A DNA stretch of 64,000 nt from the NCBI GenBank assembly GCA_001938485.1, contig MQRK01209170.1, positions 4,329-68,328 on the forward strand. The letters are read 5' to 3'. Below the pieces are notes generated by a model, which saw only the letters and a list, made by a program, of their open reading frames with translations, was not told the DNA's origin and made no database searches. Origin of the DNA: Girardia tigrina (taxonomy: Eukaryota). The position numbers and the translations under genes are program-made. How positions within the stretch are numbered: the stretch's first letter is position 1; every line of letters starts with the position of its first letter. Shown here piece by piece: positions 1 through 61,391 of the stretch.

Positions 1-134
1 GCGACCGTAACTAAGGTAATCGCGACCGTTGCTATGGTAACCGCGACCGTTGCCATGGTAACCGCGACCGTTGCTATGGTAATCGCGACCGTTGCCATGG
101 TAACCACGATAACCTATACTGTTGCCATGGTTAC
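1..134. repeat. 21-bp tandem array (GCGACCGTTGCYATGGTAAYC) containing palindromic RFX X-box-like motifs; open at window start
   Basis: Units at 1-21, 22-42, 43-63, 64-84 and 85-105, plus a lone core GTTGCCATGGTTAC at 121-134. Confidence 0.9.
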
Positions 135-238: not shown

Positions 239-2213
239 ATGGAAAGATTTTTAAAACGGAAAGCAGCAGAAGCCGTATCCGACAACTCGGAATCAAGTTG
301 TAGTGGTGATGAGTCTGAATCAGCGACCACGGCATCAGACTTCTCAGTGACAAAAACTAAAAAGAAAACCGTTGCCAGAAAATGGAATGATGACTATATC
401 AAATATGGGTTTTATTTAACGGAGGAAGAAAAAACAAAGCCGAGTCCGAGACCTACCTGCATAATATGTATTAATACATCGTTAGCCAACCAAGCAATGG
501 TGACAAATAAGCTGAATCGTCATCTAACAAAAAAACATCCTGGACTTCAGTTCAAGCAGAAATCATATTTCATGACAATGAAGCAAAACATTCAAAAAGA
601 AGCCAAAACAATGGTAGGACCTGGCAGAAATGCACCTCTAGTTCGTGCATCGTTTCGAATTGCTCACCTGCTAGCACTTAATAAAAAACCATTTACTGAA
701 GCCGAGGATATGGTTGGCCCAGCACTGCAGATAGCTGCAGAGGAACTTCTTGGCAAAACTGCTCTCTCTAAAGTTAGAGAAATTTCTTTGTCCAACGACA
801 CAATGACCAGGAGAGTGGATATGATAGCTGACGACCTTGAGAATCAACTTATGACCAAGATCTGCTCAAGTCCTTGGTATAGTATTCAGTTCGACGAATC
901 TACGGATGTTACAAATAGAGCACAGTTAATTGGTTTCGTGCGTTTTTTAGATTTTGAAAAGGAAGACATTATCGAAGATTTCTTGTTTTGTGAAGATGTT
1001 GGTGTCGACAAAACTGGGGAGGCAATTTCTAAGACTATTTTGAAGATTCTTGTGGATAATCAAATACCCTTGAATAATTGTTCCAGAATAACCACAGATG
1101 GAGCTGCTGCCATGACAGGGATTCGAAATGGTGCTGTTTCAAAAATCAAGAAACTGGCACCAAACTGTGAAGGAACTCATTGTGACCTTCATCGGGAAAA
1201 TCTGGCAAGTAAACCATTGAATTCAGGAGAAAAAGGTCCATTTGACAAGGTGATGGAAGAGTGCGTCAAAGCAATAAATGAAATCAAAGCCAAAGCAAAA
1301 AGGTCAAGCATGTTCACACTGTTATGTGAAGAAATGGGGGAAAGTAACCGAACGCTTTTGTATCACTGTGATGTTCGTTGGCTTTCAAGAGGTGTTGCAT
1401 TGATGAGACTTTTTGCGTTACGTAAAGCTGTTTTGGCTTTTTTCAGGGAACAAAAGCATGATCTTGCTAATAAGTTTTCTGATAATTCCTGGCTTGCAAA
1501 ATTGGTCTATTTGGCAGATATTTTCTCAAAATTAAATGAGCTTAATCGCGGTCTTCAGGGCAGGGACATGGACATTTTCGCAGCAACTGACAAAATCGAG
1601 GCTTTCAAATTGAAAATATTTCTTTGGAAATCGCATGTAGAAAAAAAGTGATGTCACTGACTTTCCAAATCTAAAAACTGCCCTGTCAGAAGCAACCGAT
1701 GCAGATGAAACTGTTGATCGTCTTGCCGAAACTACACTCAGTCTTGCTTTGGAACATTTGAATGTTCTTTCTTAGAATTTTGATCGTTACTTTCCTTCGA
1801 TGTCTGAAGCTGATATTCAGAAAACAAGATGGATATTAAATCCGTTTCTCAAAGATAACGTCAATGGTACAAATTTGACAAACAGTAAACAAGAAGTTCT
1901 CATTGAGATGCACTGAGACTCACACATGAGAGATATGTTCAAACAATATCATCGTACGAAATTCTGGGCAAAGGCTTTTACAGAGGAACATTAAAAATCA
2001 GTGGCCACTAAAGCAATAAAAGAACTAGTTTTGTTTCACAGTTCATATCTATGCGAGCAAGGCTTTTCACAAATGATAATTGTAAAAAATAAGAAGCGCA
2101 ACAAACTAGGTGGTGCGAAACTAACATCTTGCCTCAGGATTGCACTAACAAAAACAGTTGAGCCTTGTTTCTATATGCTTAAGAAAAACATTCAAGGGCA
2201 GCCATCTCATTGA
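239..2213 (+). pseudogene. hAT (Buster/ZBED8/SCAND3-like) transposase, disrupted
   Basis: BED-like CxxC..H..H, QFDESTD, TTDGA, HCDLHRENLA, HCDVRWLS and C-terminal SSYLCEQGFS. Frameshift in the A-run near 1645 and in-frame stops near 1773 and 1991. Confidence 0.93.
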
Positions 2214-3090
2214 AATGATAATTATATTGGAAATTGTTTACAACATTTTACAATTTTCATTTTAGATTTTTAGCCCTAAAAAGTCTATTATAAAATAATT
2301 TTACTTTTAATTAATTTTTTAAATTTTGAAACTCAAAACTCTTTTGTGTTGTAACTGTGAACTTGTGAACTTGAGTAACTTGTGACTAGAATCACTAGAG
2401 TCACTTGACTAGAGTCTAGAATTAATACTTTGAAAACCTCAAAGTTACATAATAACTTCGCTTGATAACAGGTGTGTCACAAAATTTCATGTATTGTGTC
2501 GAGTGTGTCATTCGGAAAAAAAGGTTGAGAACCTTAGATCTAGATTAACACTAGTATAAGAAGCCAATAGATTCAAAAGTGTACCATTAAATCGTTCAAC
2601 TAAACCATTTGTTTGTGGATGATAAGCTGTTGTATTTAACTTTTCAATTTCAAAAATTTCTGCGGTCTCTTTCATCATTTCATTCATAAAATTTACTCCT
2701 TGGTCTGTTAATAGTTTTCGTGGAGCTCCATATTTAAAGATAATCTCTTCCACAAATATTTTTACAATCGTATTAGTTTTCTGATCAGGGATAGGAAACG
2801 CTTCTGACCACTTCGATAGATAATCACAAAAAGCTAAAATATATTTATTTTCATTTTTGCTTTCTGGTAGTGGTCCTACGACATCCATCGATACAAATTC
2901 CATTGGTGCTGACGATACTGGCATCGGCCTTAATGGTACTTTAAATTTATTTCCAGTATTTTTTCTTCTTAAGCAGATTTTACAACTTTGACACCATTGT
3001 TTGACATCTTTCTCAATTGTTGGCCAGAAATATTTTTGTTCAATCTTGAAAAAGTTTTTCTGGCAGACAAATGACCTCCTAATGTACCAT

Positions 3091-4507
3091 TGGACAGGAA
3101 ACCATGTCTCCACGATATTTTAGGAAGAGAATTGTTTCTCATTTTACATGTCGGTTGAAAGGTGCCTTTCATTTTATTAAACAAAAATTCAGCGTGATCC
3201 CATCTCGTTTACACAGTTCAAATTCACAATAGTCTTCACTAACACATACAGTCTTAGTATCGCTGGAAATTGTTAAATCGATTTTTACGGAATTATTTTG
3301 GTCATCAGAATCTTTTACATTCTCAGTATCTTCACAACATGCAATAATATCGATATTTGTTAGATTATTTTATTTACGATAATTACTGTTTTTAAATTTA
3401 TCGTCATTGATACTTATATAATTCTCAACGAGGCAATATAAAAGGTTGTGAGGGTAATAAGTTGCACCGGCGCTCAATAACAGTTGAAAAATTCGATAGT
3501 TTCCATAAGAAACCGCAAGATCTAATGGTGTGAGGCCAGTTTCTTTATCGACAAAATTTATTTCACAATTTTTATTCACTAATGATTGAACTATTTGCTC
3601 GTTCTGATTCCAAACCGCCCACCACAACGGTCTCCGGTGGTGCATGCCATCAGAATTAAGATCGGCACCCTTTCCAATCAGAAAGTTGACAGCAGAGACA
3701 TTATTTTTCTCACAAAACACATGCAAAAGATAAGACACGTCGGAATAATATATTTTTGTTTCCTTTGCAATTTTATCGGTAACCTTTAAACGTTTAAGAA
3801 TATGATCAATTTCTTTTGAATTTAATACCAATGACATTTATATTTTTTTACAACGCCTTTTTTTATCCAAAATTCAAATTGATTGTTCAAAAAAGAGCAA
3901 TAACGAAACGACCATTTTATTTTTAAATTGTTTTTAATTGGAATTGAAAAATTGTGATTAAAATTCACAATTACAATAAAATATAACACATATACTTTAA
4001 CACACATTCAACCAATCAACACATTTACATATACACACACAAACACACTTACATTACAAGAGAAAAGATTCATTATATAATTATATTGAATCAAAATGAA
4101 AAAAAACAATGAGGCTCAACATTAATTATTTACATTTTCAAATCTCGATTGTACATTTTTGATTTCGATAGCCAAGATTACATAACCACACACACCACCA
4201 TTCGAATTGCAGTTCAAATTGATTAAAACTGCAAATTTGACAGCTTTAATAAAGAATCCCAACAACACTCGAAAAATTCAATGTTGGACTAAAGATTTTT
4301 ATGCTCAACCATTCACTTAATTATTTATTATCAATTATTTAATCTATATATTTTTTTTATTTAATTTATTTATTTTCTTTTATTTAATTTAATTAATTTA
4401 TTTAATTATTTTAATTTATTAATTTAATTATTTAATTATATATTTTATTTTATATACTGAAACTGGCAAAATAAATGTTCGGTCAAAATTGGCAATTCTC
4501 CGCTCCA
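3091..4507 (-). mobile_element. 1417-bp insertion with TG..CA ends (TGGA..TCCA) and 5-bp TSD ACCAT; solo-LTR-like, carries an ankyrin ORF
   Basis: ACCAT at 3086-3090 and 4508-4512. Removing the insert and one TSD copy rejoins the integrase reading HYHDG-TLGGHLSARKTF. Confidence 0.85.
3370..3837 (-). CDS. Ankyrin-repeat protein (about 3 repeats); frame stays open 66 codons past the TAA, to a TGA at 3171-3169
   Basis: LLHVFCEKNNVSAVNFLIGKGADLN, RPLWWAVWNQNEQIVQSLVNKNCEIN and GLTPLDLAVSYGNYRIFQLLLSAGA fit the ankyrin consensus. Confidence 0.8.
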   Translation of the reverse strand: MSLVLNSKEIDHILKRLKVTDKIAKETKIYYSDVSYLLHVFCEKNNVSAVNFLIGKGADLNSDGMHHRRPLWWAVWNQNEQIVQSLVNKNCEINFVDKETGLTPLDLAVSYGNYRIFQLLLSAGATYYPHNLLYCLVENYISINDDKFKNSNYRK

Positions 4508-5985
4508 ACCATCATGATAGTGTAATAGTAATGTTTATCGAGAATTCTTTGGTATCACTAATAATTCGTTTTTGCCATCATAATATTTGAGTACATCTTG
4601 ATATACAAAATACTTTTTTCCTTGTTCGATTAAATATTTTAAATGTTTCATTTTAGATATAGGTGTTGCACGATTTTTAATATCTTGAATACTCTCGTCT
4701 AAATCTTGATCTGTTTTAAACTTTTCAAAGTCTGTTAATTCTCGAATTGCACTAATTACATTGTTTTTTATTGGTATACTGGTTTCAAAACTATTGTTTG
4801 GTTCATTTTAACCTTGATAGTGCATCTGCATTAGCATTGGCTTTACCGGTACGATAACGAATTTGAATATTATATTCTTGGAGTTTCAGTGCCCATCGAA
4901 TTAATTTCCTGGCGGAATCTCTGTGACTCATTAACTACTGAAGAGGGCTATGATCTGTGTAAAGAATGATTTTTTTCCATAAATATATTGTCGAAACTCA
5001 GTAACTGCAAAAATCATTGCTAAAGCTTCTTTTTCAATCGTTGCATAACTTTTTTCATGAGGTTTTAAGGTTCGACTCGCATACGCTATTACATGATCTT
5101 TTTCTCCATCTTTTTGTTGATCTAGGACTGCGCCAAGTGCATAACCACTTGCATCAGTCATCAATATAAAAGGTTTTGACGTATCGGGACAACGTAAAAT
5201 TGGTTCATTAATTAACTTTTGTTTTAATGTTTCAAACGCAATTTTTTGCTCATCATTCCAAATAAATTTAATATTTTTTCTTAATAACATATTAAGAGGA
5301 TTTGCAATATGAGCAAAATTTTTTATAAATCGTCAGTAGTATCCAGCAAGTCCTACAAACTGTTGAAGTTCTTTAATATTCTTTGGTGGTGGAAATTCTT
5401 TCACTTTTTTAATATTATCATAGCTGGGTTTTAATTGATTTTTTGATATAATATGTCCAACATATACTACTTGTGTTCTTCCAAAACTGCATTTTGTTGG
5501 TTTAATTTTTAATCCCGCCATTGCTAATCTTTCCAATACAAGTTCGACATCTATTTCATGTTCTTCATAAGTTTCTAAAAAATAATAATATCATCAATAT
5601 AGACTATAACATGATTAATGTCCATTAAAGTAAAATCCATCGATCTTTGAAAAAATGCAGGTGCTCTGGTTAAACCGAAAGGTAAAACATTAAACTCATA
5701 TAATCCTTTGCCATCTGTAAATGCAGTTTTCATTTTATCTGCTTCTTTTATTCCAAATTGCCAATATCCACAATGTAAATCAATTGTCGTAAAGATTTCA
5801 GCATTTCCCATTTTATCATACATTGTATTGATTAATGGTAAAGGATAAGTGTCATTTCTCGTCGCTGTATTTAATTTTCTATAATCTACATAAAATCTTT
5901 GCGATCCATCTGTCTTTTTCACCAGCACAATTAATTCACCATGGTGACGTCCATGGTGAGAAACTGGGTCGGATAATATCAAACT

Positions 5986-7227
5986 TTAACATTCCTTTAA
6001 TTTGTTTTTGAGTTTCATCCTGTAACGCATATGGGATTCTCTAAAGCTTTGCTTGATCGGAGTTTCATCCAACAATGGTATTTCATATTCAATAATATGA
6101 GTTCTTCCTAAATCATATTCATGTTTTGCGAATACTTTATCATATTTTCTAATTAACGGAGTGAACCTAGCTTTCTGACTTTCCGTTAAATTTGGAATTG
6201 TTACCACCGGTGGATCATATCTTTTTACATCTGGAGGAATACTTTTTGGAACTTTTACTTCCTGTACTAAAGATACAGTTCCAATTCTCGTTTGTGGTTG
6301 TATGATTTTCGGTTTTACATCAAAATTAACAAACCTGACTGGTATCAATTTTTGTGAGACTGATACTATTTCGCTACACATTTGAATATCATATTTCTTC
6401 ATAAACTCCTCATTTGGTTGAAAAAGTAGATCTCCTTTGATGTGACTGACTACATCTGCATGATATACTAATTCTGCTTGATAAAGAATTTCTAAATTTT
6501 CACTGATAAACACATCGGTTACTCTATGTAAGATTTTTCCATCAGGTATCGATACCAAATTTCCACTTTTTAAATCTAAAGAAATACCTTCTAACTGTTG
6601 CAAAACATCCATACCAAGCAATAATGATTCTGGGCAACTTTTTGAAATTAATACGTTTGTTATAATATTCTTGCCACCAATTTTTATTGACATTTGAACA
6701 GTTCCTTCAATCGCTAGATAATGACATGTAACTGATTGTAATTTTTCAATACAAGGTGCCAGATTTAACTTTTCAGATTCCAGAAGCATCTTTTCATCGA
6801 CAATTGTGACCGCTGAACCAGTATCAACTAAAGTTGTAAGATATCTATCATTTAATAAAAAAGTTATTGTTAATATTTTACCGAATTTAGTTCTCACAGC
6901 AAAAACATAATTACTTAGTAAAACCAATTGATTTCTTATTTCAACTTCTCTTTTTTGTTTTTCCTCTGAATTTAAAGTTTCCAGTTTTGGATCGATAGGT
7001 TTAATTTCCTTAAGTTGTAAGAATGGATAGTAATTCGGTAATGATCTAAAACTTGTCAGATTGAATGGTGCATTTGAATTTAACGTTTCTTGATTCTTTA
7101 TCATTTGTAGCTGATTCTCGTAATCTTTCGACTCGCTCTTCCAGACGATGGAAGATCGTAGTTCGGTCGTTTGTGACAAAACGGCAACGGGTTGCCGTGC
7201 TTGCTTCTGTTGGAGAGGCGGCTTCAT
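5986..7227 (-). CDS. Gypsy gag tail, aspartic protease and linker ORF
   Basis: LVDTGSAVTIV and LLLGMDVL retropepsin motifs; DLGRTHIIEYEI..TPIKQ RT leader. Confidence 0.8.
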   Translation of the reverse strand: MKPPLQQKQARQPVAVLSQTTELRSSIVWKSESKDYENQLQMIKNQETLNSNAPFNLTSFRSLPNYYPFLQLKEIKPIDPKLETLNSEEKQKREVEIRNQLVLLSNYVFAVRTKFGKILTITFLLNDRYLTTLVDTGSAVTIVDEKMLLESEKLNLAPCIEKLQSVTCHYLAIEGTVQMSIKIGGKNIITNVLISKSCPESLLLGMDVLQQLEGISLDLKSGNLVSIPDGKILHRVTDVFISENLEILYQAELVYHADVVSHIKGDLLFQPNEEFMKKYDIQMCSEIVSVSQKLIPVRFVNFDVKPKIIQPQTRIGTVSLVQEVKVPKSIPPDVKRYDPPVVTIPNLTESQKARFTPLIRKYDKVFAKHEYDLGRTHIIEYEIPLLDETPIKQSFRESHMRYRMKLKNKLKEC

Positions 7228-8019
7228 GAGTAACCCATGTGCCGCGTGTCAAGGACCATGTGCGTGTCCGTGTGAGTAATTCTGGTGTTTGAACTGACTC
7301 GACAAAACAGAGTTAGGAGACATGGATATGTTCCGTGCCGCCTGGAAGGGATTCCTTTCAATTCATATACCAATAATTCATGAGTTCCTCATTATTCAAG
7401 ATCGGTAAATCTTTCTCTCTTGGTCACCGATTTTTAGCCATCGCGAATGATCCGGGATTCGTATTCAATCCCGCGCAAATGCGCCATTTAAACCGCCGGT
7501 CAAATCGTTTTGATTCCATCTGATGACAGCAGCGATCGATGATGGATGAAAAGCGCTCGTATATGCGCTATTGACTTGCGAACTTTCCGAAGAGAAATTG
7601 ATCAACGAATTTCCGTTATTTTGACGGATATTCGCGTTCGATTTATCATTAGTCGAATAATTTTCACCCATTAGAATTGAAAATTAAAGTTTCATAATAT
7701 TTATTAACTTCATTGATTTAATAAAACAAATTTATAAATTTACAAATTACTGTTAATTGTTTTTTTATACATTAGAAATTATTGGGAAACGAAAATCCAA
7801 TGTTTCACGGTAATGTTTTTATTGATCATTCAAAAATTTTTTTATTGTTTTAAAATTTTTTTAATGCGCATCTGAATTTTTCAGTATTAAAAATTTCAGG
7901 GTTCGCAAATCCAATTAAAATTTTTTTTTCAAAATTAAAAATCAAAAAATTAAATTACATATCACTTAAAAAAACTCTTAATTGGTTGCTACTGCTGATG
8001 CGATTTAGTGAACACTACA
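7130..8019 (-). repeat. Probable truncated 5' LTR of Gypsy 1
   Basis: Starts TGTAGTG on the minus strand at 8019, as does the LTR at 12086, and has the same AT-rich then GC-rich layout. Inner boundary is approximate. Confidence 0.55.
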
Positions 8020-8028
8020 AATATCACT

Positions 8029-8120
8029 AAGGCTGTTGTCTGGGCAACACTCCTATATGGATGCGAGAGTTGGACAATAAATCAGAACAGTATGGATAGG
8101 CTTAAAGCGTTTGAAATGAA
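8029..8120 (+). mobile_element. RTE-clade LINE reverse transcriptase C-terminal fragment
   Basis: Translates KAVVWATLLYGCESWTINQNSMDRLKAFEM, matching the RTE LYGCESWT..LxAFEM motif. Confidence 0.75.
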
Positions 8121-9703
8121 GTCGACACCAGATCCGCCGTTTCCATTATTCCTCACACTTTCATGTTTCACTTGAAGCGACTCCCGCAGTACTTCAGCTC
8201 CGCTAACGGGACCACCGTTAACACGTACGGCACTGTACAGCTCACGATCACGTTGTACCATTTGGGAAATCAGTTCACTTGGACATTCACCATTGCAGGG
8301 GTGACACAACCCATCCTCGGAGCCGATTTTTTGGAACACTTCAAGATCTTGGTCGACTGCAGCACTCAAAATCTCGTGGCCAAGGTAAATCACAACATCG
8401 ACAACAACTTCCGACAGGAATCATGAGTCCCGCCGATGACCACAACAGAACGTTCGATCAACATCCTTGACGCCGACACTACCTGACAGATTCGCGAGCA
8501 ATTTCCAAACCTGCTGGATGATGCAAATGCCGCCAAACCTACAACTTGTGTATCAACACACGTAATCTCCACCACAAACTGTGCTCCAGTTCACCAACGG
8601 CGTAGAGAACTATCACAAGCGATCCGAACCCAAGCTGCCGAAGAATTTTGGAAATTAGAGGCAGCTGGTATCATCCGGCGCTCCTCCTCTCAGTGGGCTG
8701 CTTCACTCCAAATAATCAAAAAGAAGGATGGATCACTTAGGATCTGCAGGGACTACTTTGGAGTCAACAAGGTCACTATACCTGACTCATACCCCATGCC
8801 GTTGATAACTGACAAAACACTGACAAAACACAAAAAACACTTATTCGAAGTTCTGACGAGGCTTCATGATCACAACCTTCGCATTAAGCTCGACAAATAT
8901 CAATTCTTCCAGCCAAAGGTGGAGTTCCTGGGCCACAGCATTTCCAGAGATAGGGTCAGGCCACTGGAAAGCCGAATAAAAGCCATTCGAGACTTTCGTC
9001 GTCCAGAGACCGTCATGGCTCTCCGTAGTTTTTTAGGAATGATTAATTATGTCAGACGATTCATACCGAACCCATCCGGAATACTTGCCCCACTTACCAC
9101 ACTTTCTACTGGTCCGAAAGATCTAAAACAGCCTGGTCACGCGAAGCTGACACCGCATTCCAACAGGTCAAGGAGGATATGCTCGCGACAAACTCATTAC
9201 ATTTTCCCGACAGCAATCTCCCGGTAACAATGACAACCGATGCGTCGAACATTGTCATCGGTGCAGTGCTCATGCAGTTTCGTGGATACAAACCAGAACC
9301 GATAGAGTTCTTTTCACACAAGCTGTCTCCACCGCAGACGCGGTACTCGGCCTTCGATCGCGAACTATTAAAGTTGTACCTGTCCGTTTGTCACTTCAAG
9401 CATTTCATCATCGCCCAACTGACTACTGTCTACACGGATCACAAACCGCTAACGTTCTATCTAACGATGAAAAATCCATCTCAACCACAACAACACCAAA
9501 TGAGTTACCTGTCCCAGTTCAACAACAACGTACAACATATCAAAGGTGCCGAAAATGTGGTGGCAGATTGCCTTTCTAGAGCTGACATAATGAGTCTCGA
9601 CTTCAAGCCGTTGTTCACCGCAGAGGTATTGAAATACTATCCACCCACCTTGAAAGATCTCAGCTACTTCAAAATACCGCCAATCAAAAAAGGAAATGTG
9701 TAT

Positions 9704-10544
9704 TGTTGGAGTTCTTTTTGGTGAACTTTAAATTTTTGATATTTTTAAATTTTTGATATTTTTAAAAATCATGTTTGTATTTTAAATAAATTAAAATTAA
9801 TGTTCGATTACTTAAAATGAAATAATTCTTTAAAATAAAAACCTTTTAAATTCTTAAAAAAAGAACAAACTCATTCTTTAAATTTTTGGAAATAATTAAT
9901 TGTTATAAATAATCTCTAAAATAAAAAAATATTTAAAATCAAAAGTTTTTAAACAGTTATTAGTAAAAAATATCTTAATTAATTTTAGAAAGCTAATTTC
10001 ATAAATAATTGAATTTTAATTGTTTTGCATTTATTTTAAGAGTTATTCGGAAGAATTTTTTGTTAAAATTTTTGTTGTCAGAAATGTAATAAAAAAGATA
10101 ATTTAAAGTTAAAAGGCAGTTGGAAATTCTGCAAATTAAAATTCGATAAATAATAAATAATATATATATATATATATATATATATTAAACATTTTATAAT
10201 GAATGAATCTCTATTTTAATAATAATAAATTTAAATATTGCTAAATATTTTTGTATTTTAAATTTGTAAGTTATTTTTGCAATTTTATTAAAAACAAATC
10301 TAAGGTTTTTATTAAAAAGAAATAATTGAATTTTTAAAATATTTTTAAAGATCTAAATTTATGCAAAATTGAATAAAATAACATATTTATATATTAATCG
10401 ATATTATTATTTATATTTAGAATTTTGAGATCTGGATTATGTAATTAAAATATTGTTCATCATAAATTTGTTTCAATAATGAAAATTTTAGTAGAAATAA
10501 AGTTTACAAAATTATGACTTCATATTGTAATCACGAACCTAATA
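9704..10544 (+). mobile_element. AT-rich solo-LTR-like insertion, 5-bp TSD TGTAT (family copy 1)
   Basis: TGTAT at 9699-9703 and 10545-10549. Ends TGTTGGAGTTC and GAACCTAATA. Excision restores pol GNVYYDTS. Confidence 0.8.
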
Positions 10545-12085
10545 TGTATTATGACACGTCGCTCCTGGGATGCCTCCGGTCAGTGCTTGATCAGGATCTA
10601 CAGGTTCAGGCCTTCGAGGCAATTTACAACTCATTAAAGGCAACCTACCAGCTGATAAGAAACAAAGTCATTTGACCGTTCATGCGGAAAGACATTACTC
10701 TTTGGTCTCGCACCTGTTTCCAGTGCCAGAAGAATAAGGTCACGAAGCACACCAAAACGCCATTACTGACCTTCTCCACCGGCAGCTGTTTCGACACGGT
10801 GCATATGGACATTGTCGGAACACTTCCTATGTCACATGGCTACCAGTACATCTTTACCATCTTAGACAAGAACACGAGGTGACCCTAGGAGTTCCCAATC
10901 AGATCACTAGCCACTGACACCATTATTGAAATATTCGTCAATCACTGGATTTCTCGTTTCGGCATTCCGAAGAGGTTCATAACAGATCAGGGGTGACAAT
11001 TCGAGTCAGAGTTATTCAGCGACCTCACAAAACGACTGGGCATCCAAAAATCACGACCACCGCGTACCACCCACAAATCAACTGCCTGATAGAACGATTC
11101 CACCGTACCCTGAAGAACTCATTCAGAACGTTAGCACAGAAACACGATTGTGCGAAGCAGTTACCACTCATTTTGCTAGGCTGGAGAAACATTCCCCATA
11201 GCAGATATGGTACCTCGTCCGCACAAATGTTCTTCGGCTCAAACACCTCCTTAAACAACGAACTATTCTTCAATGAGGCACCAAAAAACGATGAGATGTT
11301 AATGGCGGCACGTGAACACTTTTTGCAAGCCGACAGAACACCACCAAACCAGAGGGACAGCACATCTTCATCGCGAAATAACTTGCGACCTCAAAATTTG
11401 TTTGGCGCCAAAAGGAAGCCGCGAACTCTCTAGAAAGTCGCCACACCGGACCACATAAGCTCCTAACCGTCGCATTAGATAACAACACAGTTAAAATTTT
11501 GGTACATGGCAAGGAGATCACCGTGAATATTTGCAAGCCTTGCCTGCACTTGGAAGATTCCATCCAGGACGAAACCAAGCAAAAGCCGGACAACAACAAC
11601 TCCCCCAAAAAGAAAGCTAGAACGTCAAAGAGCATATTAGCCACGAAAACAACAAGAAAACCATCTCAAAGGAAGATCATACGACCGGCACGTTTCCATG
11701 ACTACACCAAGTAACGCGTAACGACCTCACACCCTCAACACAACTACAACACACGCTCACAACATCACACAGCAACAGATCACGCACAAACCACAAACCC
11801 CCACAACAACAACAACACGCAACTCCCCACCTTCACACCTCTACAACACAATACACCACACCCAAACAACCAACACGTCAAACAAAACCCTCACCGACAC
11901 AGCAACAATGCAATCATACCCCCACAACCCAATACATCACACGCAAACAGACATAAAAAAAACCAACATGAACAACACTGCAACACACCTTGTTTCAAGG
12001 AATATTCATTCTCGCACCCCTCCTACTTCCAGCAGCCCTCCACAATGCAACAACCACTATGCTCCGCATTCTTCAGCGGGGCTCG

Positions 12086-12953
12086 TGTAGTGATCTTCTC
12101 AATCAACCAAAAAAATCCGATTCGAAAAAATCGGATTAGAAATTAAAAATAATGACTGTTAGAAATTCAACCTTTTTTTAAATAATTAGAATTAATGTTA
12201 GAAATTTGAATTAATAAATGCTTAAGATGATGAATACTTTTTGTCTCTATGTTAATTTATTAATGTTAAATTATTCATAACATTCTATGCTATTTTCAAA
12301 CAACATTCCTACCGCGAAGATCTACCGCGCGGACCTTTGCACCCGGTGTCGCTCCACTTCACGGTCGCTGTCCACTGCGGTCGCACTGGTCCATTCCATC
12401 GGATTCTGGTCGTTAGTCTCAGAAAACAGGTCGGTCCCTACCGATACTCGGACTTCGCATCGGATTTGCGCGCTCCGTCTCTGGTGGTTCACCCGATCGC
12501 CAAACCAACCAGAGTGCTCCCCTCGACAATCGGCATCGATCGGATCGATGCGCTATCGGGGATTGAGAGCCCCACGCAACAGTCGACAGGAAAGTCGACC
12601 GACGGTGTCGTCACTCCTAAGGGTGGAGCCAATCGAACGAATGAACCGATGATGAACCGGCTGCACCGAAGACTCGTGTCGAGCGGCAAGACGCGCGTTG
12701 GTCCAGCCTTGCTTTTAACGTTTGAGTGGCTGGAAATCCAGCGACTTCCGTTGGATGCCAGACCCACAATTGGAATCGAACTCCAGATAGTGATTAGACA
12801 TTATTTCAAAATTTTATTTCGATACAAATTTCTGTTTTTTTATGCGAATTTCCGAGGAACATTATATTCTATTTTTAAAACATTTATAAATAAAAAAGAT
12901 GTGATATAAACATGAATACTTTAAAATTTTAATTAAAATTTTACAACATCACA
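12086..12953 (+). repeat. 3' LTR of Gypsy 2
   Basis: CAGCGGGGCTCG PPT followed by TGTAGTG; AATAAA near 12888; ends CATCACA. Right boundary is tentative. Confidence 0.65.
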
Positions 12954-15273: not shown

Positions 15274-15409
15274 TTATACAGATTCATTAGTTGCTTTTCT
15301 AACATTTTCGTTTTCCGGTTCTATCTTAAGATGTATCTTGCACAAATGATCAATAATACCAGCTCCAAGAGCATCACCGTAAACATTAATTGATGTTCGA
15401 AGGCGATCT
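15274..15409 (-). CDS. slc1a: EAAT gene A exon 9 (TM8, stop)
   Basis: [24 protein letters not shown]...NESV*; acceptor AG at 15411-15410. Confidence 0.92.
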
Positions 15410-18400
15410 CTAAATGAATGATTATCAATACAAAATGATTATTTAAAGAAATTAAAACAACTAGACATCACCAAATTTTCATTTACAAAGGATCAATGAA
15501 AAAAAACAGAAAGTAAGAAAATGTCGAGTTACAAAAATATTGAAATTAATTTTAAAATAAATATACGACATTTTATGCTGAATAAAACAAATTATCTTTA
15601 CGAGATGTTTATTATTATTATGGGTTACTAAAATTTTCAATTCATCAAATAAATTTTTGTGTGAAATTATGACTTCTAATCAAACTTTGAATCAAATAAT
15701 ATCGAAGATAATGTCAATGCTACTGACAATAATAAAACATATTTTTAATCAGATATTCGCTACGATATAAAATTTTCGTCCTGATTTCATAATGAAATCT
15801 TTGTTCTTTGTAATACCTAAATTGCAATCCGTAAATGTATTGTCCTATACATGTTCGTTTGATGATGGATGTGCATAATTGTTTGTTCATTTTTTTATGG
15901 CGTGCTTGTGATTTTTGTTTTATATATTACTTATAGCGAGGGAAGAATTTTTATGTTGATGTTGTCTTTTTTTAATCTGTCTTATTGCGATTATCGGAAT
16001 CAGTTTTTTGATTAATGTTTGGTTGGAATCTCTCAATACCGATGATACTGAAATGCAAAAAAAACAAAATTCAGATAGATAAAATTATATTTTCACAGTT
16101 TGATTCAGCAAAAGAGAATCATTTTTGATTTAGCGGCTTCCATACGGACCACTCGTTTCTTGTCACTCACTAACTTATTCAATGTTGATTTGATTGCAGC
16201 AAAGTACTTCACCGTGTTGTAATTTGGGAAGGACAGCACAAACCAACCGATCACCTTTGCCAAAAACTAGCGATCTTTCTAATAGAGATAAATAAATGAG
16301 AACCTATATTCGAAACTCGAAATAATATACTGGTTCAGGAGAACTTCTAAAATCACACAGTGCAAATATATTTTCGGCTATGTCTTCAATATATTGTGAC
16401 AATCGGTTGTCTTGAGAGTGCAGATTACAAATGGCTTTCAATACATCCAGACGCAATGAAATTTTTTTTATTGTCAAGCCAAAAGAACCATTGACTCACG
16501 ATGTCTATTATCTATAGAAATGAACATATTAACCCTATCAAGACATCTCCTTCATAACTTTACCGCATCAACAGAAAACTCTTTGATATGTTTCGAATAA
16601 CTCTTAATAAGCTTCAAATAGATCTCCGTTGAAATATATCGTTATTTGATTTTAAATTTTAATAATATGGTCAATGATCGCTTAGCGATCACAAAATCAA
16701 TAAATTAATTTGATGAAGATTTAATTTGGCATATGTTATACATATATTTTTTTATCCTAGACTGTTTATGTGTGACAGAGGTTATATATTTTTGTGTGTT
16801 GATTTAAAATTTATTGTCTATTTGAATTTAGTTTTGTTTATTTTTTTAATAATAAATTTCACGATTAAATCGCACTACTTCGTTTTCGTTCATATTATTT
16901 AATTATACTGATAAAATTACACTATATTCTATAATTTAAATTTTTATTTAAAACAAATTTCTAGATATGAGGTGTGTTCCAGATTTGAATTAACCCTTTA
17001 CTGACTATTGATGCCATATGGAATCATAATATATATCAGACTTGTATAGCCATCTATGAATGAATAGGGATAACATTTTTTATTTAGATCGATAAGAAGA
17101 TATATTTGTTGTCAATTAAATTTTTACTCTAATTACTTTACTGCTTTCGCATATATTTTACTACATACTTTTGGTGTGTTTAAATTGATATTCTTAATTC
17201 AGCCAGGAAAGGGTTAATAAAAAAAATTAAAGAAATAATTAACATTGAAATTGGAATTTTGCATTCCAATTTCAAGTCATTAAAATTATATAATATATAT
17301 TTATATATGTATATGTATATACATTATTGAGAAGTTAAATTTTTTATGGTTTAAAAATTCGTTTGTTTAAACGAATTATTATAATTAATGTTAGTTTTGA
17401 TATCTAATAAAGATAGTTCAATATCGATTTTTTGTTAATTAGAATTAATAGAAAAATATTAAAACGAATTACTTATTAAAAGATTGATAGAAACATTGAT
17501 TTTTGGAATTATAAGTAAATTATATTTGAAATGGATGATGGATTGAACATAAAATCGAGACAAGATTATTCGTACGATTATCCGATTTTGGACGAATGTG
17601 CCAATTATTGTCTAACTGGAATCATTCAATTTCTACAAAACGAATGGACGAAAATCGAAATCAAACCGTTCAATGGGAAGTGAATGGGAACGAGCTGAAT
17701 TTCAGGCAAAAATAAATTATTTACAAGGCGAAAGAAAATGTCAGGAGAGTGAAATGTGATTTGATTCGACGAATAAAAATGTTGGAATATGCACTGAAAC
17801 AAGAGCGAAATAAACTGAGCGCATTGACGGGCGACAGCGACAACTCGATAAACATTGTGATCTTCGAGAACACTCTGAACAATGACGAAAAAGCCGAATT
17901 CGATGACGCCGATATCTATTTGGAGTTCTCGAAAAATAATCAGAAAATCAATGATGAAAATATCAAATGGAAAGGCGAAAGAAATACGGTCCTCTTCAGG
18001 GCCAAAAATCTTGATTGGAAAGTGGAGACGGATTCGACAAAAACAAGGTGTAAGTAATAAGTTTTTGCATGTCAAGCTACATGTTAATAAACAATAAATA
18101 TTTTTAAATGGCTTTTATTTTATTAAGCTACGATGCTTACATATAGTTTATGGAATTGCAATTACAAAAGTAGCCTAACGCCGCAGTAGAGCATTGGGAG
18201 GCTTCATGTAGCTTGAAGGAATGATGCTACTTCACGTTGCATTGCTTTTGAGTGCTTTGCAGAATTTAGATATGGTCAATGCCAGCTGGATAACGAGGCT
18301 CATTTTGTAAAAGCTACCAAGAGGAAGATGCACAAGTGACTATTGCACAATTAGAGGTAACCATCAGAATCTCATCGATATAAATCCTCCCTATCCTACT

Positions 18401-27400: not shown

Positions 27401-30400
27401 TTTATTGTTTCAAATTGGTTGTTTAATTTTTCAATTTTTTTCATTTTAATTTTTTTTAATTAAAATTTTTTATAATAAATAAAAAGAAACTATAAGAATA
27501 ATAGTAATAATAATACAAATAATAAGCGATAATAACTCCATAGCATCATGGAAAGGGGGTTAAAATAGCAAGAAAAACATTTTAAACATTTGTAGATAAT
27601 CGTAAAACGATTTTTGCCAAAAAATTGTAAGTAGATAATTTAATCATCTACTTACAATTGTAAGTAAATAATATGAGCTTTCCGCACAGAATCAGTCAAT
27701 CATTCAATCAGCTACAGAATGGGACTATTGTATATTTGATAAATTGTGTTGAGTTTTTGCGTGATTGGTTCAAAAGGGTCAAGTTTCAATTATGTTTAGA
27801 ATTTTCTTTAATAAAAAAGAAAAAAATGAAAAATATTTTAATGTTATTCCATCAGCATAAAATGCATCGGTTCTCGAAGCGACGAATTCTTGGAAGGCAT
27901 TTTGAGCATCATTTTGGTTTTTAAAAATTTTTTCACGTAGGAAGTTGTACAAATACCTGAAAAAGTAAAATCGTTTTTATTGCGAAGATGATTGGCAGAA
28001 CAAATTTCATAACGTCAGTTCTTTTCATTTTCATTCAAATCATGTGGAACCCATTTATCAAGTTTCTTGATTTTTCCAAGTTGTTTGAAATGATCCAGGA
28101 CTGTTGAATGACTAATGCCTAACCCATCTGCAAGTTCTCTGATTGTTTTACGGGGATCGGTTTCAACCATTGTCCTCAAATTGTCGTTGTTCACAGTAAC
28201 TGGACGACCACAAACTTCTTCATCTACAAGATTTTCATCTCCATCAGAAAATTTTCAGAACCATCGTTACACTGTGCACTCAGAAGCTGTTCCCTTTCCA
28301 AACGCTTTATTGATATTGTGAGCCGTTTCTGCTGCTTTACGACCCAGTTTAAATTCGTACAAGAAAATTGCTCGAATTTTAATTTTTTCCATTATTAATT
28401 TAGTACCGTAAATATTNNNNNNNNNNNNNNNNNNNNNNNNNNNNNNNNNNNNNNNNNNNNNNNNNNTAGGCATAAGATTTCAAATAATATCTAACACTAA
28501 TGCATTTAAACTTATATACATATCAAAGTAGATAAACAAAGTATAAAGCTCAAAAACCGCCATTATTTCTCGACCAACCTAATATTAATCAATTCGAATG
28601 AGTCTAACTTACGAGAGTTTTGTTAATAATTACTCTGAGGAAAAATCAATTTGTAACATTAATGTTGTTACGTTGTGGTTTTTTTACGAAAATTAATTTT
28701 GTATAATATATCTTTTAGTACCTCTAATATCCTCACATTCATCTAGTTCAGCGTATTTTAAACTGGGTTTTATTTATTTTTAGTTTTTTTACCTTTTAAT
28801 TTGTATTTTAAATATTCATATTGTAATATAAAATAAAAAAATATTTACTAAAAGTAATAATGTCTCATAAATAATGAAAGCGTTGAAGAAGAATTTTTAT
28901 TTTGTCGAACTTTGATAGAACATACAAGAAGAGAAGATATTTACGGTAAAGTTGACAAATTTTTTAAAAGTGATAGTTTAGATTGGAAAAATTGCTACGG
29001 AATATGCACAGATGATGCGAAATCAATGACGGGTGAAAATATCGGTTTCAAATCATTTGTTAAAGCTGCTAATAAGTATAACATTTACACACTGTCTTCT
29101 TCATAGAGAGGCACTTGCAGCAAAAAAATAACACCAGAATTAAACGAAGTCTTTCATAATGTGTAAAAATTATAAACTTTATTAGAAGTCGTGACATAAA
29201 CAGTCGCTTACCTTCCGAGTTCATTGTTCTAACTGATATTCTGTAAACCTGTATTCTGTATTCTGTAAATTAATGTTTTATATTTTTTTTAAATGATCAT
29301 TCTTTTGTTGATTTCTTACACGTTATTTATTTTAGAACACATAATATTCTCATTTATTTTATTCTAAAATGCCAAATATTAATTTATTATTTAACTTTCA
29401 GTTAATAAGTATTCAGCTTAAAACAAACGAATAAACTCCGAAAGGCGCTTATTGATTTATCAATTCAGTTTTCGTCAGTAGACATATCGAATACATAAAG
29501 TAAACAATATTAAATAGTGGAAGTTATGTGGAAAGTTAACCAAAGTAAAAGGTAAACTCTGAAGGATGTTTATCAACTTTGGTAAGTATTCAATTTGGAA
29601 GGATTTTTTCTTCAAAGTCTGAAAATAAGTGTGCCTCCATGAATATAATTTATCTCAAAAATTACTAGTACTTTTCGTAAGTTTCATAATTTTACAAAAT
29701 CCAATTTGAAATCGTACAGTAGCATATCCCTTTTGGTGCAAACTCTCAACTAGTATCTAATTTTGTAAAATATGCGATGCAACTATAAAGTCTTTAGACT
29801 CTTAAAAAGATAAGGAATACATGGAAACCAAATTGTATATTTACAAAATTATTTATATGCTACAGATATAAAATAAGTTTTATTTAATTGTTATAAATTT
29901 GGTTTAAAATTAGAGGTGAACATCTGTTGGGGCCTCCATTAAGAAAAAGATTTTTTAAAAGTTTCTTTTGAGTTTTTTAGCAAAAAGACTTTGTTACCCT
30001 TTCGAAGTGATCTGTCTAATCTAAAATACATATTTGTATTTATATTAAACACTATATACTTTATTTATATTTTTCTCATTGTTTTCTTTCTCTCTCTCTT
30101 TATTCTTGAATCTCTGGCTATGTATATTAATTATAAATATAAACATATAGGATTTAAGATTATATATTAAAAGAATCGATAATAAAATAACGTTTTTGAG
30201 TCACTATATAATTTTTATCACTTTACATTATTTTAATTTAAAAAATATTTTACTTTTCATTCAATTGAATCCTCCGAAATATTGGGAAAATGAAATAGTT
30301 ATGTCATAATTTTTAAATTGAAATGTGTTTTAAACAGTGATAAAAATTTTGGTGTATAAGTTGTATATGTGGATTTATGATTCACTGTTTTTAGACCTTT

Positions 30401-33400: not shown

Positions 33401-36400
33401 CAACTCTAGGAACAAGAAATATATGTATCCAAAGGCTCTGTTCGAACTGCTGACTTTTTGTTTAAAGTTGTTTTGTGTCTGTTGTTTTTGGTGAACTTTA
33501 AATTTGTGAAAATTTTTAAATTGAAAATCATATTTATATTTAAGTTAAAATAATTTTACACAAGTTTTTGAAAATCAAATTAAAGTCTAATTAAAATGAA
33601 TGTGTATAATTTAAGTTCAAAATCAAAATAAAAATAATTTTTTTTACCAAAAATTAATTTTCAGAAATCTATATTTAAACAATAACAGCAATGTTTGACT
33701 AATTAAAATGGATTAAAAATTTTGATTACATTAATTTACAATAGATTAAAGAATATTTTTTGTATAAAATGAAGTTTTAAAAAAATTATAATGTTTTATT
33801 GAAATTAATTGTAAACTGGAATTTATTAAAAAATAATTTATCATTGAAATATTTCCCATTAAAATATTTTTCAAGATCTAAAATCCTATTTAAGTTTAAT
33901 AAACATTGTAAAAAAATAATTTATACAAAACTTAATAAAAACGCATTTAGGTATATCGATATTTATATTTAGAAATTTAAAATCTGGTTTGTGCAAACTG
34001 AAAATATTGTTCCTCATAAATTTGTTTATATAATGAACGTTGTAATATAAATAAAATTTAATCATGAACCTTGATCTTAATCACGAACCCAATAGTGTTT
34101 ATTAAATGAAAAATTTTACATTGTAGCAATGGTTAACTTGCTCCAGTGCTGGTATCAATCTTCATGCAGTTGATGGAAGGGAACTGTCATTCCAACAACG
34201 GCAAAGAACGATTTATTTTCACGATCAAAACGATTACAATACAATTTTCAAAACATTCGATAAAAAGTGAATATTAAAATAACAATTTTAATTTCACCCT
34301 CAAACAACATGAAAAATAATGTCTCATTATACATGGACCTCGTAAAGAACGCAAACAAGTTAATAAAATTTATTATATAAAATATTGATCGGGGTTTGCT
34401 AACCAATTAAACTTGGAAATCTTCTCCTTTTTATATTAAGGCAATATTATATAATATTATGTAAAATGCCCCGGGGTCAGTTGATGCAATTGAAATTGAC
34501 CTTGTAATTGCACATTCCCGTGATGTCATGACACAAAATCACGGGAATTCGAACTCTAGTAATGTCATGAGATTTGAAATCATTGAAGTTCAATATTACT
34601 GAATGTGGTGAGGAATGACATCACCACAGACCTATTTACTGCAGAATAACCATATTTTTATAAAAGGAATGTGGATAGTTTATTTTTAGTTTTCCATGAC
34701 GAATTTTGAATTTCATGTTCATTCATAATTATATTGATTTTGCAAGAGAATTGAAGGTTAATAATAATCTTCCATTCCAGGATTTCCATGTAAAAGAACG
34801 AATGGTAAATAATAAAAGGAATGGTAAAGTTAAACATCAGAAGTATGAATTTATACACTATCAAAAATTTTAATAATTTTTAACAGGCTTTTAAATAAAA
34901 ATTACAGCGAATGTTTAAACAAAATTTTTGACCAAAGTAAGAATAAATTTTGTATATAAAAATATCCAAAAAACGATGTTCAAATACGTATGACAAGAGA
35001 AATGTATTTCATCATGGATGTATCAGATATACGTAAAATGAATAAAGTTATAAATCACTCTTTCCAGACCTTTTTTAAGAATCGCCCACATGGTTTTCAT
35101 CACGACTTCTATAGATGGACGAATGAGTTTTTCTGCAATAGTATGTGGCTTCCCTACTTTTGCAATTAGACCAGATATCTCGTAACTGGCTAGAAGTCCT
35201 GCTTGTGACATTGAAACATGCGATTTGAAGATGGAGGAAATAGTTGAACGAGCTTCGAAAATGGAAAGTAGCTTGTTGAAAAATTGAACATTGGAATTTT
35301 CTTTATCTGGATGCACCCTCTTCAGATGTTCCTTCATTCGTGAAGGCTTCATTGCCTCGTTTGAAAATGATTTCTGGCAAAGGAGGCAAAGTGGAATCCG
35401 ATCATCTTGCGGGAACTTCGTAAAACCGTACTTTTGATACTCCACGTTATATAGACGCGCGACTGCTTTTGTTTTCCTATCTATTTTTGAAATTTTCGCA
35501 CGACTTTCTGTCATGTTGTAATATTTGTCTTTTTTGATTTTAAGTAAAATTTAAATTACAAAACACAAAAAAATATTATAACAAAATAAAGTAATTTTCA
35601 ATTTAATAAAACGATGTAAATTTTAAATTACTTAAATATATAGATCAGAATTTTAATATTAAATAAAATGTTAAAAAATTAAATAGAATTTTTCGTTAGA
35701 ACTGTCGTAACATTTTCAATAAATTAACAAATTATAAATGTTGAATTATGAAATTACATATCGCCCACTAATTCTACATTCACTATTCATCACTCATACA
35801 TTATTTTTGATCGCCCAGGTTGGGAAACACTGTTTTAAATTGTCCTCAATTCATTAAATTTATGAAGTATAGAAAAATGGGAAATTACCTCCTCTTAAAG
35901 ATGCGTCTATCTAAAGTTTCTCATTAAAGATGACCATATTGGAAAAATGTCTGATATTCTTTGTTTCTGATTCTCAAACAGCCAAATTGAATGTACTTCC
36001 AAAAGTAAAAAAATATAGAATTTATATTTCGTACTCTACAGTATAATACTGCAAAATATATAGATATGCAATTGAAACCTTTATCAAAGTATACCTTTAT
36101 GCTTTTATATAGGACGTAATTGATTACTATGCTAAGGATCACAACGCAAATCAATAGTTTCCTGTAACAGAACATTTGCAAACAGACTTGATACATCAAA
36201 AGAAACCATAAAGTCATACTTTGATTGAATTTCAAAGCTAGACTTAGAATTAAAAATTTAAACTATTCTGACAAGTAAAATTCTTAAGAATTAAAGGTTT
36301 CAATTGCATTTCCGGGTCAATCCTAATTTAAACTTAAACACACCAACATCATATAAATAAGAAAACGATTCCGACAAAAGATTTTTATTTAATGATATAT

Positions 36401-47820: not shown

Positions 47821-49295
47821 GGTACGCCGACTTTACCGCGCCGACTTTACCGCGCCGACTTTACCACGGGCGACTTTATCGCGGACGACTTTACCACGGG
47901 TGACTTTACACCGGGTGACTTTACCGCGGAAAATTTACAACAAAATTATCAAAAAGTAAACAATGTCATCTAAAATATATATAAAAAATTTTAATTATGT
48001 AATCATAAAACAATGAATCATAATTAGGTTTTAATTTGAAAACATAAATGGATAGAAAATTTCAGATGGACATGACATTTAATTATTCTTTTTAATAAAA
48101 AAAATAAACAAACAACATACGAAAAATTAGTAAATTCCTAATTTAAAAAATTCAAATAACGCAAAAAATGTGATGTGTAAATTGAAGAAAGATACAAAAA
48201 CATTAAACTGTTTCTTTTATTTTTTTCCAAATTGATTGGCTCAGGTAAAAAAATCAGCCTTTAACAGTAGCAATACAAAATACAATGGAAACATCTTTCA
48301 TTGCTCCTTTTCAAAATCTATCATAATAGTTTGTAGATTTAAATTTGGTTGTTGTCTTAAAAGCTTTTCAAACATACGAGTGTAATTTAATTGAGTTTTA
48401 TTGGTCATCAATGCATAAACAGGAGGGAATACTTTGTTTGATTTTAAAGCATGTATAGTATAAACTTGGTAAAATAATCGAGGGGCGACAGAGAATGTCC
48501 CATCCATAAACCAATTTTCACAAGAAGTCATCAGATTTATGTTTGCAGTTGTACTGAAGAGCATTATCCGGTTGGCATCATTAGATCCAGAATCGAGTAT
48601 CAAAAAAGATTCATTTCTAGTTGTAAACCTCAAATTTTCAGGAACATTTATATCTGAAAGATGATTTTGATTTGGCCAAGGAACATTCTCTTGTTTTCTT
48701 TTTCGTTGAATTGTACGTTGACTAGAGTGATAACTTGGAAGAAATATTGCAACGTCAAGTGGAATCCCAGTCTTAGATTTCTGAATAATTTGCCTCGGGG
48801 CCTCTACTGTCTGCGATGCAGGAGTTGCAACCCCCTGAGCAATTTGCCTAGCGACAACTTTACCTAGCTAAGGAGCGTGATTATACTCAGAAGGGCGACC
48901 TAAAATAATAGATGCCTCGTTGTTGTTTGAAGTATGAATTTTTCCTTTACATTTATGTTGTTCATAAGCAACAACAGCGCCAGAATATTCCATCTAGGGA
49001 TTTTAAATCATAATCAAAGCGATAAGAATAACCTGCATACGCAACAATCGGATTTCCAGATTTTGAAGTAAAGAATTGAAGATTCATGCTGAAAAAACAG
49101 GGAGAGAAAAATTTAAAGAAATTTATAATATTTTAAGATATATTTTTAAACGTAAATGGAAAATTTTATTATAATTATTATATTTTAATAAAGCATTATT
49201 CGGTAATAATGGCAAAAAATATCTTAATTAAAAATCTGAAAAAATCCGCGATAAAGTCGCCTGCGGTAAAGTCGCCGCGGTAAAGTCGCCTCACC
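47821..49295 (-). mobile_element. MULE/Mutator element with tandem-repeat TIRs, internally deleted
   Basis: Perfect 9-bp TSD GTATTCTAC at 47812-47820 and 49296-49304; repeats of CGACTTTACCGCG at both ends; WFMDGTF..FYQVYTIH..MIDFE. Confidence 0.92.
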
Positions 49296-55922: not shown

Positions 55923-56079
55923 TTATAGACGCGCAGATTTTGTTTCACCTGGCTCAATGTTTGCCATCTCATTTACTTCAGTTCCAGTGATAGCCCCAAG
56001 ATGACCTTTGCAAAGATGGTCAACAATACCGGCTCCGATGGCATCTCCAAGAACATTAATTGATGTCCGGACTCGGTCT
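55923..56079 (-). CDS. slc1a: EAAT gene B last exon
   Basis: DRVRTSINVLGDAIGAGIVDHLCKGHLG...KSARL*; AATAAA about 30 nt after the stop. Confidence 0.92.
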
Positions 56080-61382: not shown

Positions 61383-61391
61383 TATATATAA

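What the first reader, a model, noticed from the sequence alone, without database searches (positions are those of the whole stretch)
3086..4512. Integrase-type 1.4-kb mobile unit carrying an ankyrin-repeat cargo gene
Seen: perfect 5-bp TSD ACCAT, TGGA..TCCA termini, no transposase or RT, and one intronless ankyrin ORF downstream of an AT-rich promoter-like tract. Precise excision restores the host integrase zinc finger. Known: TG..CA ends with a 5-bp TSD are the signature of retroviral-like integrases (solo LTRs, Ginger-like elements), and LTRs rarely contain protein genes. Short ankyrin-only proteins are used by some viruses as IkB-like host modulators. Inference: a solo LTR or non-autonomous element that spreads an accessory effector gene.
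Basis: partly seen in the sequence, partly recalled or inferred. Interest (0 to 1): 0.75.

Follow-up and report, generated by a model that had tools for sequence, protein, structure and literature searches.

The report
Ankyrin gene inside probable solo LTR
A 1.4-kb piece of DNA carrying a now-broken three-repeat ankyrin gene sits inside a dead retrotransposon in this animal genome; it is likely the leftover terminal repeat of another retrotransposon, which would be an unusual place for a protein gene, and nothing found here shows what the protein did.

Summary
The insertion is real. A 1,417-bp unit (3091-4507) flanked by ACCAT/ACCAT interrupts the integrase zinc-binding region of a dead Ty3/gypsy element. 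A second natural copy (protein P0007, 14 differences in 214 codons) matches the window up to the proposed end and then diverges, which supports the boundary independently. Eight of 24 listed sequencing runs hold 21-36% of its words.

Three corrections. (1) The 155-aa ORF is truncated: the frame continues past a stop at codon 156, where P0007 reads on. (2) The differences between the two copies look neutral, and 8 of 14 fall in the ankyrin repeats, so no selection is shown. (3) The ends are only a 4-bp perfect inverted repeat, and the junction can also be read as a 3-bp duplication with TTGGA..TCCAA ends.

The protein is a generic three-repeat ankyrin with an unassigned tail; no IkB or vankyrin link appeared. 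Best reading: a solo LTR whose LTR encodes an ankyrin adaptor (0.5). Main rival: a non-autonomous DNA element with a captured gene (0.3). Without the genome, paired LTRs could not be looked for. New variant of a known kind; moderate interest.

The parts
3086..3090 (+). Left copy of the 5-bp target-site duplication, ACCAT (or CCA at 3087-3089 under the 3-bp parse)
3091..4507 (-). 1,417-bp inserted unit, probable solo LTR; TGGA..TCCA ends, 4-bp perfect inverted repeat, no internal direct repeat
3370..3837 (-). Ankyrin ORF up to its premature stop (155 aa, P0001); three ankyrin repeats at about residues 35-126 (about 3735-3460), preceded by two short predicted helices
3169..3369 (-). In-frame continuation after the stop (66 codons); acidic, cysteine-containing tail of no known family, matched by P0007 to about its residue 214
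3091..3184 (-). 3' end of the unit; in another frame it matches P0007 residues 219-251 (27 of 33 identical, the last aligned codon ending at 3089), after which P0007 diverges
3838..4507 (-). 670-bp non-coding leader, including an AT-rich low-complexity tract at about 4317-4453 (15% GC over 4301-4507); promoter role untested
4508..4512 (+). Right copy of the target-site duplication, ACCAT
2511..3085 (-). Host Ty3/gypsy integrase, downstream part (rest of the H2C2 zinc-binding domain and the rve core); frameshifted and cut off near 2535
4513..7248 (-). Host Ty3/gypsy pol, upstream part (protease, RT, RNase H, start of integrase), broken by several stops and frameshifts

Best explanation
The 1,417-bp unit carries a broken three-repeat ankyrin gene and interrupts a dead Ty3/gypsy integrase; it is likely a solo LTR, left when a second LTR retrotransposon inserted here and its two LTRs later recombined. 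Shown: the insertion, the duplicated target, the shared end with a second copy, the ankyrin ORF and its decay. Inferred: a retroviral-type integrase made the 5-bp staggered cut; LTR-LTR recombination removed gag-pol; the family's LTR encodes its own 222-274-codon gene, probably transcribed from the AT-rich leader in the same LTR. The product would be a small binding adaptor (three ankyrin repeats plus an acidic tail) that, in active copies, bound a host or element protein to the element's benefit. Its partner is unknown, and this copy no longer makes the full protein.
For: 5-bp duplication with TG..CA ends at the point where integrase homology breaks, 1 such pair among 9 five-mer matches in 3,600 position pairs. 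Only a 4-bp terminal inverted repeat and no terminal direct repeat, as expected of a single LTR rather than a TIR element. Most LTR elements have 5-bp TSDs and TG..CA ends (PMC6839031, passages). P0007 matches to window 3089 and then reads 23 unrelated residues, so the end is shared and the flank differs. 8 of 24 listed runs hold 21-36% of the words. The neighbouring Gypsy carries an 841-bp ORF-less insert with a 5-bp duplication and a TGTTGG end, so such nested solo-LTR-like inserts occur here. Precedents: an ORF in the MMTV LTR (titles in the reference list of PMC2191387) and ankyrin repeats in planarian Burro gypsy polyproteins (PMC6431247, passages).
Against: No paired LTR, primer-binding site, polypurine tract or internal region was seen: no genome is held, the window has no second copy, and collection scans found no DNA copy (with 44, 41, 98, 99). 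The end TGG departs from the TGTNR pattern of most Gypsy LTRs (PMC2836005). P0007 also shares the base just outside the proposed end (its codon 251 needs it), which fits a TTGGA..TCCAA element with a 3-bp duplication somewhat better than chance would. No sign of selection: 14 of 214 codons differ, mean BLOSUM62 -0.38 against a neutral -0.24 to -0.43 (P 0.49-0.65), and 8 of the 14 lie in the ankyrin repeats. No related protein between P0007 and generic ankyrins was found.
Confidence: 0.5

Rival explanations
1. A non-autonomous cut-and-paste element (Pack-TIR-like) with very short or eroded inverted ends that captured an ankyrin gene and is moved in trans by a DDE transposase or integrase.
For: Ends match 8 of 11 in inverted orientation (background 0.56%), and the best inverted local alignment of the end regions beat 96% of 300 shuffles. 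The 3-bp parse gives a 5-bp perfect inverted repeat and agrees with P0007's next base. Gene-carrying TIR elements exist in animals (PMC8277862, abstract). The size and a single central gene fit.
Against: No TIR beyond 11 bp (10 of 30), whereas Ginger TIRs are 40-297 bp and GingerRoot TIRs 100-150 bp. No autonomous partner sharing the ends was found.
Confidence: 0.3
2. A deletion remnant of a larger integrase-encoding element (a Burro-like giant gypsy, or a virus-like element): the two outer ends were joined around an accessory ankyrin gene and then copied in trans.
For: Burro polyproteins carry ankyrin repeats and accessory ORFs (PMC6431247). P0007's frame runs to and past the unit's end, and the two copies differ in frame near codons 215-219, so the original stop is not fixed.
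Against: No fused or longer relative among 226 candidates of 481-2,000 aa for residues 100-251 (weak evidence). None of the best 150 hits other than P0007 exceeds 41% identity. Both copies start at the same methionine, which in the window directly follows an in-frame stop.
Confidence: 0.12
3. A tyrosine-recombinase (Crypton-like) non-autonomous element whose 5-bp direct repeat is a fixed crossover sequence rather than a target duplication.
For: No real TIR; some Cryptons have 5-6-bp terminal direct repeats, CryptonS with TATGG (PMC3212892, passages), which resembles ATGGT on the ORF strand.
Against: P0007's residues after the shared end are incompatible with ATGGT, so the repeat is not fixed between copies. 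The same paper found no terminal repeats in animal Cryptons.
Confidence: 0.04
4. Not a transposed unit: a one-off DNA repair insertion or retrocopy of a host ankyrin gene with a chance direct repeat.
For: Only one DNA copy was seen directly; P0007 could be the orthologous parent.
Against: Duplicated target plus inverted ends plus a second copy that diverges at the same end. No poly(A) tail after the ORF.
Confidence: 0.04

Closest known systems
Solo LTRs of LTR retrotransposons (Ty3/gypsy, copia, BEL)
   Same: 5-bp TSD, TG..CA ends, very short inverted ends, no coding for its own mobility, nested in dead retroelement DNA.
   Different: Carries a 222-274-codon ankyrin gene; begins TGG rather than TGTNR; no paired or internal copy seen.
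MMTV sag, the ORF in the LTR of mouse mammary tumour virus
   Same: A protein gene held wholly inside a 1.3-1.4-kb LTR (ORF location from reference titles in PMC2191387; LTR length recalled).
   Different: Unrelated protein; sag has a proven host-modulating role, while here no function, expression or selection is shown.
Burro/GYPSM1 giant gypsy elements of planarians
   Same: LTR retrotransposons with ankyrin repeats as accessory domains (PMC6431247, passages).
   Different: There the ankyrin repeats sit in a 4,873-aa polyprotein in the internal region; here a stand-alone ORF in a 1.4-kb unit. The host of this window was not identified, and no Burro sequence was compared.
Ginger1/Ginger2-TDD DNA transposons and Pack-TIRs
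   Same: TG..CA ends; TDD-4/5 make 5-bp TSDs; Pack-TIRs carry captured genes in animals.
   Different: No 40-297-bp TIR, no TGTNR end, no transposase partner found.
Polydnavirus ank/vankyrin IkB mimics
   Same: Short proteins built on an ankyrin domain, carried by mobile DNA (PMC3359993, passages).
   Different: Those consist of the ankyrin domain alone and bind Rel dimers; this has three repeats plus a tail of about 90 residues, and no IkB or vankyrin was named among the listed top hits.

Membership tests
Solo LTR of an LTR retrotransposon | 4-6-bp target-site duplication | tested here: met
   5-bp ACCAT on both sides; 3- and 4-bp parses also possible
Solo LTR of an LTR retrotransposon | TG..CA ends with a short inverted repeat | tested here: met
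   TGGA..TCCA, 8 of 11; third base departs from TGTNR
Solo LTR of an LTR retrotransposon | Same sequence found in pairs around an internal region with primer-binding site and polypurine tract | not testable with these tools
   No genome held; no DNA copy in the collections
Solo LTR of an LTR retrotransposon | Multiple dispersed copies sharing the same ends | tested here: inconclusive
   One further copy known only as protein shares one end; 8 of 24 runs hold 21-36% of words, none laid
Ginger1/Ginger2-TDD | TIRs of 40 bp or more | tested here: not met
   10 of 30 matches against 40-297 bp
Ginger1/Ginger2-TDD | TGTNR termini | tested here: not met
   TGGAC and TGGAG
Ginger1/Ginger2-TDD | Integrase-like transposase in the element or in a partner sharing its ends | tested here: inconclusive
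   None in the insert; partner not searchable without the genome
Crypton-like element | Fixed terminal direct repeat shared by all copies | tested here: not met
   P0007's flank is incompatible with the window's repeat; inferred from protein only
IkB-like viral ankyrin (vankyrin) | Specific similarity to IkB/Cactus ankyrin repeats | tested here: not met
   None named among the best 60 of 300 PDB sequence hits or the fold hits listed down to rank 50 in PDB and BFVD (many BFVD rows unnamed); no phylogeny was built
IkB-like viral ankyrin (vankyrin) | Binding to Rel/NF-kB dimers | not tested
   Host Rel protein not available; needs an experiment
Ankyrin repeat proteins (PF12796, PF00023) | Tandem 33-residue helix-turn-helix repeats | tested here: met
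   Three repeats above the Pfam cut-off; model pLDDT 79-96 over residues 41-130, 1-2 A rmsd to DARPins

The most novel reading that the evidence does not exclude
An undescribed animal LTR-retrotransposon family encodes, inside its LTR, a selected DARPin-sized ankyrin adaptor, so that every solo LTR left by recombination is a self-contained expression cassette for a host-modulating binder, spread across several species.
Probability: 0.22. Interest if true: 0.7.

Novelty: new variant of a known kind. Interest (0 to 1): 0.4.

Why it matters
LTRs are usually annotated as non-coding. An ankyrin gene inside one would be an invertebrate parallel to MMTV sag and a direct handle on how retrotransposons might counter host silencing or immunity: a small binder whose partner can be pulled down. 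It would also give a route for lineage-specific ankyrin gene expansions. If the unit is instead a Pack-type DNA element, or the gene is passive cargo, it is an ordinary case of gene capture by a transposon. As it stands this copy is a decaying pseudogene in a nest of dead transposons.

Tried and rejected
No whole genome is held, so copy number and pairing were not measured. No reads or contigs were laid on the locus, so empty sites, loose ends and expression remain open.

Sequencing runs: 12 of the 20 holding rows have shares under 0.2 (coded organisms C-F, two unlabelled rows and two leaf-litter metatranscriptomes). The four organism-B rows are one sample and only guessed to be RNA.

DNA copies: P0007 scans gave 0 confirmed of 134 (metagenomes), 0 of 8 (viral) and 0 of 111 (genomes). 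Host integrase in viral contigs: 0 of 13. End patterns: 0 in viral contigs and genomes; 32 metagenome matches, all chance (5-18 of the next 42 bases, no BLASTN hit).

Protein: one search gave 1 generic hit of 29 candidates; one search gave P0007 itself plus 10 generic ankyrins of 415 candidates; one search gave 0 of 226. The top-150 list is crowded by long ankyrin arrays, so relatives at 40-60% identity could be hidden. Atlas: generic Ank clusters at 0.98; nothing at 0.9 or above for the tail. PHROGs: two unknown-function families over the repeats only. The single-sequence fold was unusable (pLDDT 34); the aligned fold used a rough 13-row alignment of generic ankyrins and leans towards that fold.

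RNA and DNA structure: no Rfam match near a gathering score, so no hammerhead; terminal hairpins are not significant (z -1.2 to 0.95), so Helitron-like and Penelope-like readings were dropped.

Literature: no paper describing an ankyrin ORF inside an LTR or a 1.4-kb ankyrin cassette turned up in searches (listings only, except the papers named as read). The Burro primary paper is not held; Repbase and supplements were not seen. Earlier scan findings: nothing by sequence or place.

Full report
Setting. The window is AT-rich animal DNA with assembly gaps, holding exons of a dicarboxylate/glutamate transporter, a striatin fragment and many dead transposons. The host species was not identified and no whole genome is held. 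The finding lies in a nest: a hAT-like transposase at 239-2213 (family recognised by eye; no Pfam hit), a dead Ty3/gypsy pol on the minus strand at about 2511-7248, and a second dead Gypsy on the plus strand from about 8100.

The insertion. ACCAT lies at 3086-3090 and 4508-4512 around 1,417 bp that begin TGGA and end TCCA. In 60-nt zones around both junctions, 9 of 3,600 position pairs share a 5-mer and 1 of these has TG..CA ends. The break falls in the integrase zinc-binding domain: the lower flank starts at about model position 16 (weak alone), the frame below matches positions 24-58 and the rve core (PFV and Ty3 integrases), and the upper flank holds the first histidine by eye but matched nothing alone. 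The host is broken in several other places. The ends match 4 of 4, 8 of 11 and 10 of 30 in inverted orientation; there is no terminal direct repeat. Because the duplication starts with A and ends with T, the junction also reads as a 3-bp duplication with TTGGA..TCCAA ends, or a 4-bp one with asymmetric ends.

A second copy. A scan of 1.84 billion representatives returned one close relative, P0007, 274 aa, 94% identical over residues 1-155; the other 149 listed hits are long ankyrin arrays at 26-41%. It is a singleton from a 1,634-bp JGI contig whose DNA I could not obtain. It matches the window in frame to about codon 214, then in a second frame over residues 219-251, ending at window 3089; after that it reads 23 residues unrelated to the host integrase. 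So homology stops within about two bases of the proposed end, and the flank differs: independent support for a mobile unit with that boundary. It also shares the base just outside TCCA, which chance would give roughly one time in three and which leaves the 3-bp parse open. Public runs hold related DNA: 20 of 24 listed rows, 8 of them at shares of 0.21-0.36 from 4 studies, in coded organisms A and B and one unlabelled sample; none reaches 0.5 and none was laid. If full length, those shares mean about 95-97% identity.

The gene. The ORF starts at 3837 and stops at codon 156, but the frame stays open to 3169, 78 bp inside the unit's end. P0007 reads through that position, so the 155-aa product is a truncation. 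The two copies also differ in frame near codons 215-219; which frame is original cannot be told. Over 214 codons there are 14 differences (13 missense and the stop), each explicable by one base. Their mean BLOSUM62 score is -0.38 against -0.24 to -0.43 for neutral single-base changes (P 0.49-0.65); 0 fall in residues 1-34, 8 in the repeats (35-126) and 6 in the tail; the implied DNA divergence is about 3%. That is decay after insertion. It neither shows nor excludes selection on the source element. The protein has three ankyrin repeats, modelled at pLDDT 79-96 over residues 41-130, with low-confidence helices before and a low-confidence tail after residue 133. Best structural matches are designed three-repeat DARPins and giant-virus and poxvirus ankyrins at 16-34% identity, that is, generic. 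No IkB, Cactus or vankyrin is named in the listed hits. The tail has no family.

Mechanism. Shown: a duplicated target, short inverted ends, a shared end in a second copy, no mobility gene, a decayed ankyrin gene. Inferred: insertion by a retroviral-type integrase; loss of the internal region by LTR-LTR recombination; transcription of the gene from the 670-bp leader; a role as a small binding adaptor. I put the solo-LTR reading at 0.5: a 5-bp duplication with TG..CA ends is typical of LTR elements (PMC6839031, passages), real TIRs are missing, and the neighbouring Gypsy holds an ordinary-looking 841-bp solo-LTR-like insert. Against it, TGG is not the usual TGTNR end (PMC2836005, passages) and the defining paired arrangement is untested. 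A non-autonomous DNA element with a captured gene gets 0.3, a deletion remnant of a larger element 0.12, a Crypton-like element 0.04 (PMC3212892, passages; the repeat is not fixed in P0007) and a one-off insertion 0.04.

Comparison with what is known. It works like a solo LTR with an LTR-encoded accessory gene, as MMTV sag is (reference titles only, PMC2191387). Accessory ORFs are common in invertebrate LTR elements but usually lie in the internal region (PMC5408684, passages); ankyrin repeats occur in planarian Burro polyproteins (PMC6431247, passages). LTR elements and TIR elements both capture host genes in animals (PMC5131818 and PMC8277862, abstracts). Polydnavirus Ank proteins bind Rel dimers and consist of the ankyrin domain alone (PMC3359993, passages); nothing ties this protein to them. 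It fails the Ginger tests for TIR length and end motif. My searches found no description of an ankyrin ORF inside an LTR; Repbase, subscription papers and supplements were not seen. Earlier notes of this scan report other ORFs inside LTRs in other genomes; these are unchecked leads that make the layout look less rare.

Verdict. Observation largely right, with the ORF broken and the ends weaker than implied. Interpretation partly supported: mobile yes, class open, effector role unsupported. New variant of a known kind; interest 0.4, rising to about 0.7 if paired LTRs and purifying selection are shown.

Noticed in passing
window 9699-10549: An 841-bp, 15%-GC insert (9704-10544) without a long ORF interrupts the second Gypsy's pol; 5-bp duplication TGTAT, 5' end TGTTGG, decayed 3' end. 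Looks like an ordinary solo LTR.
   Followed up: partly
window 239-2535: Decayed hAT-like (Buster/ZBED-type by eye) transposase on the plus strand; its right end near 2535 cuts off the host Gypsy integrase.
   Followed up: no
window 1-109: 21-bp tandem repeat, 5.2 copies, upstream of the hAT-like transposase.
   Followed up: no
window 8115-12900: Second dead Gypsy on the plus strand (RT, RNase H, integrase pieces) with a purine-rich tract at about 12075-12085 followed by TGTAGT, a probable 3' LTR start; a 217-codon stop-free frame at 12256-12909 inside that probable LTR has no Pfam match.
   Followed up: no
window 17716-18057: Degenerate striatin N-terminal fragment on the plus strand, probably within an intron of the transporter gene; possibly a retrocopy.
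   Followed up: no
window 15328-47264 and 55998-56085: Exons of a sodium:dicarboxylate (EAAT-type) transporter on the minus strand with introns of several kb; 15328-15415 has a 75%-identical copy at 55998-56085, suggesting a tandem paralogue.
   Followed up: no
window 35023-35550, 44952-45877, 48298-48867, 28123-28585, 60951-61385: Further DNA-transposon debris: BED-finger hAT piece, pogo/Tc5-type, MULE, and two 94-97%-identical copies of a mariner-like fragment.
   Followed up: no
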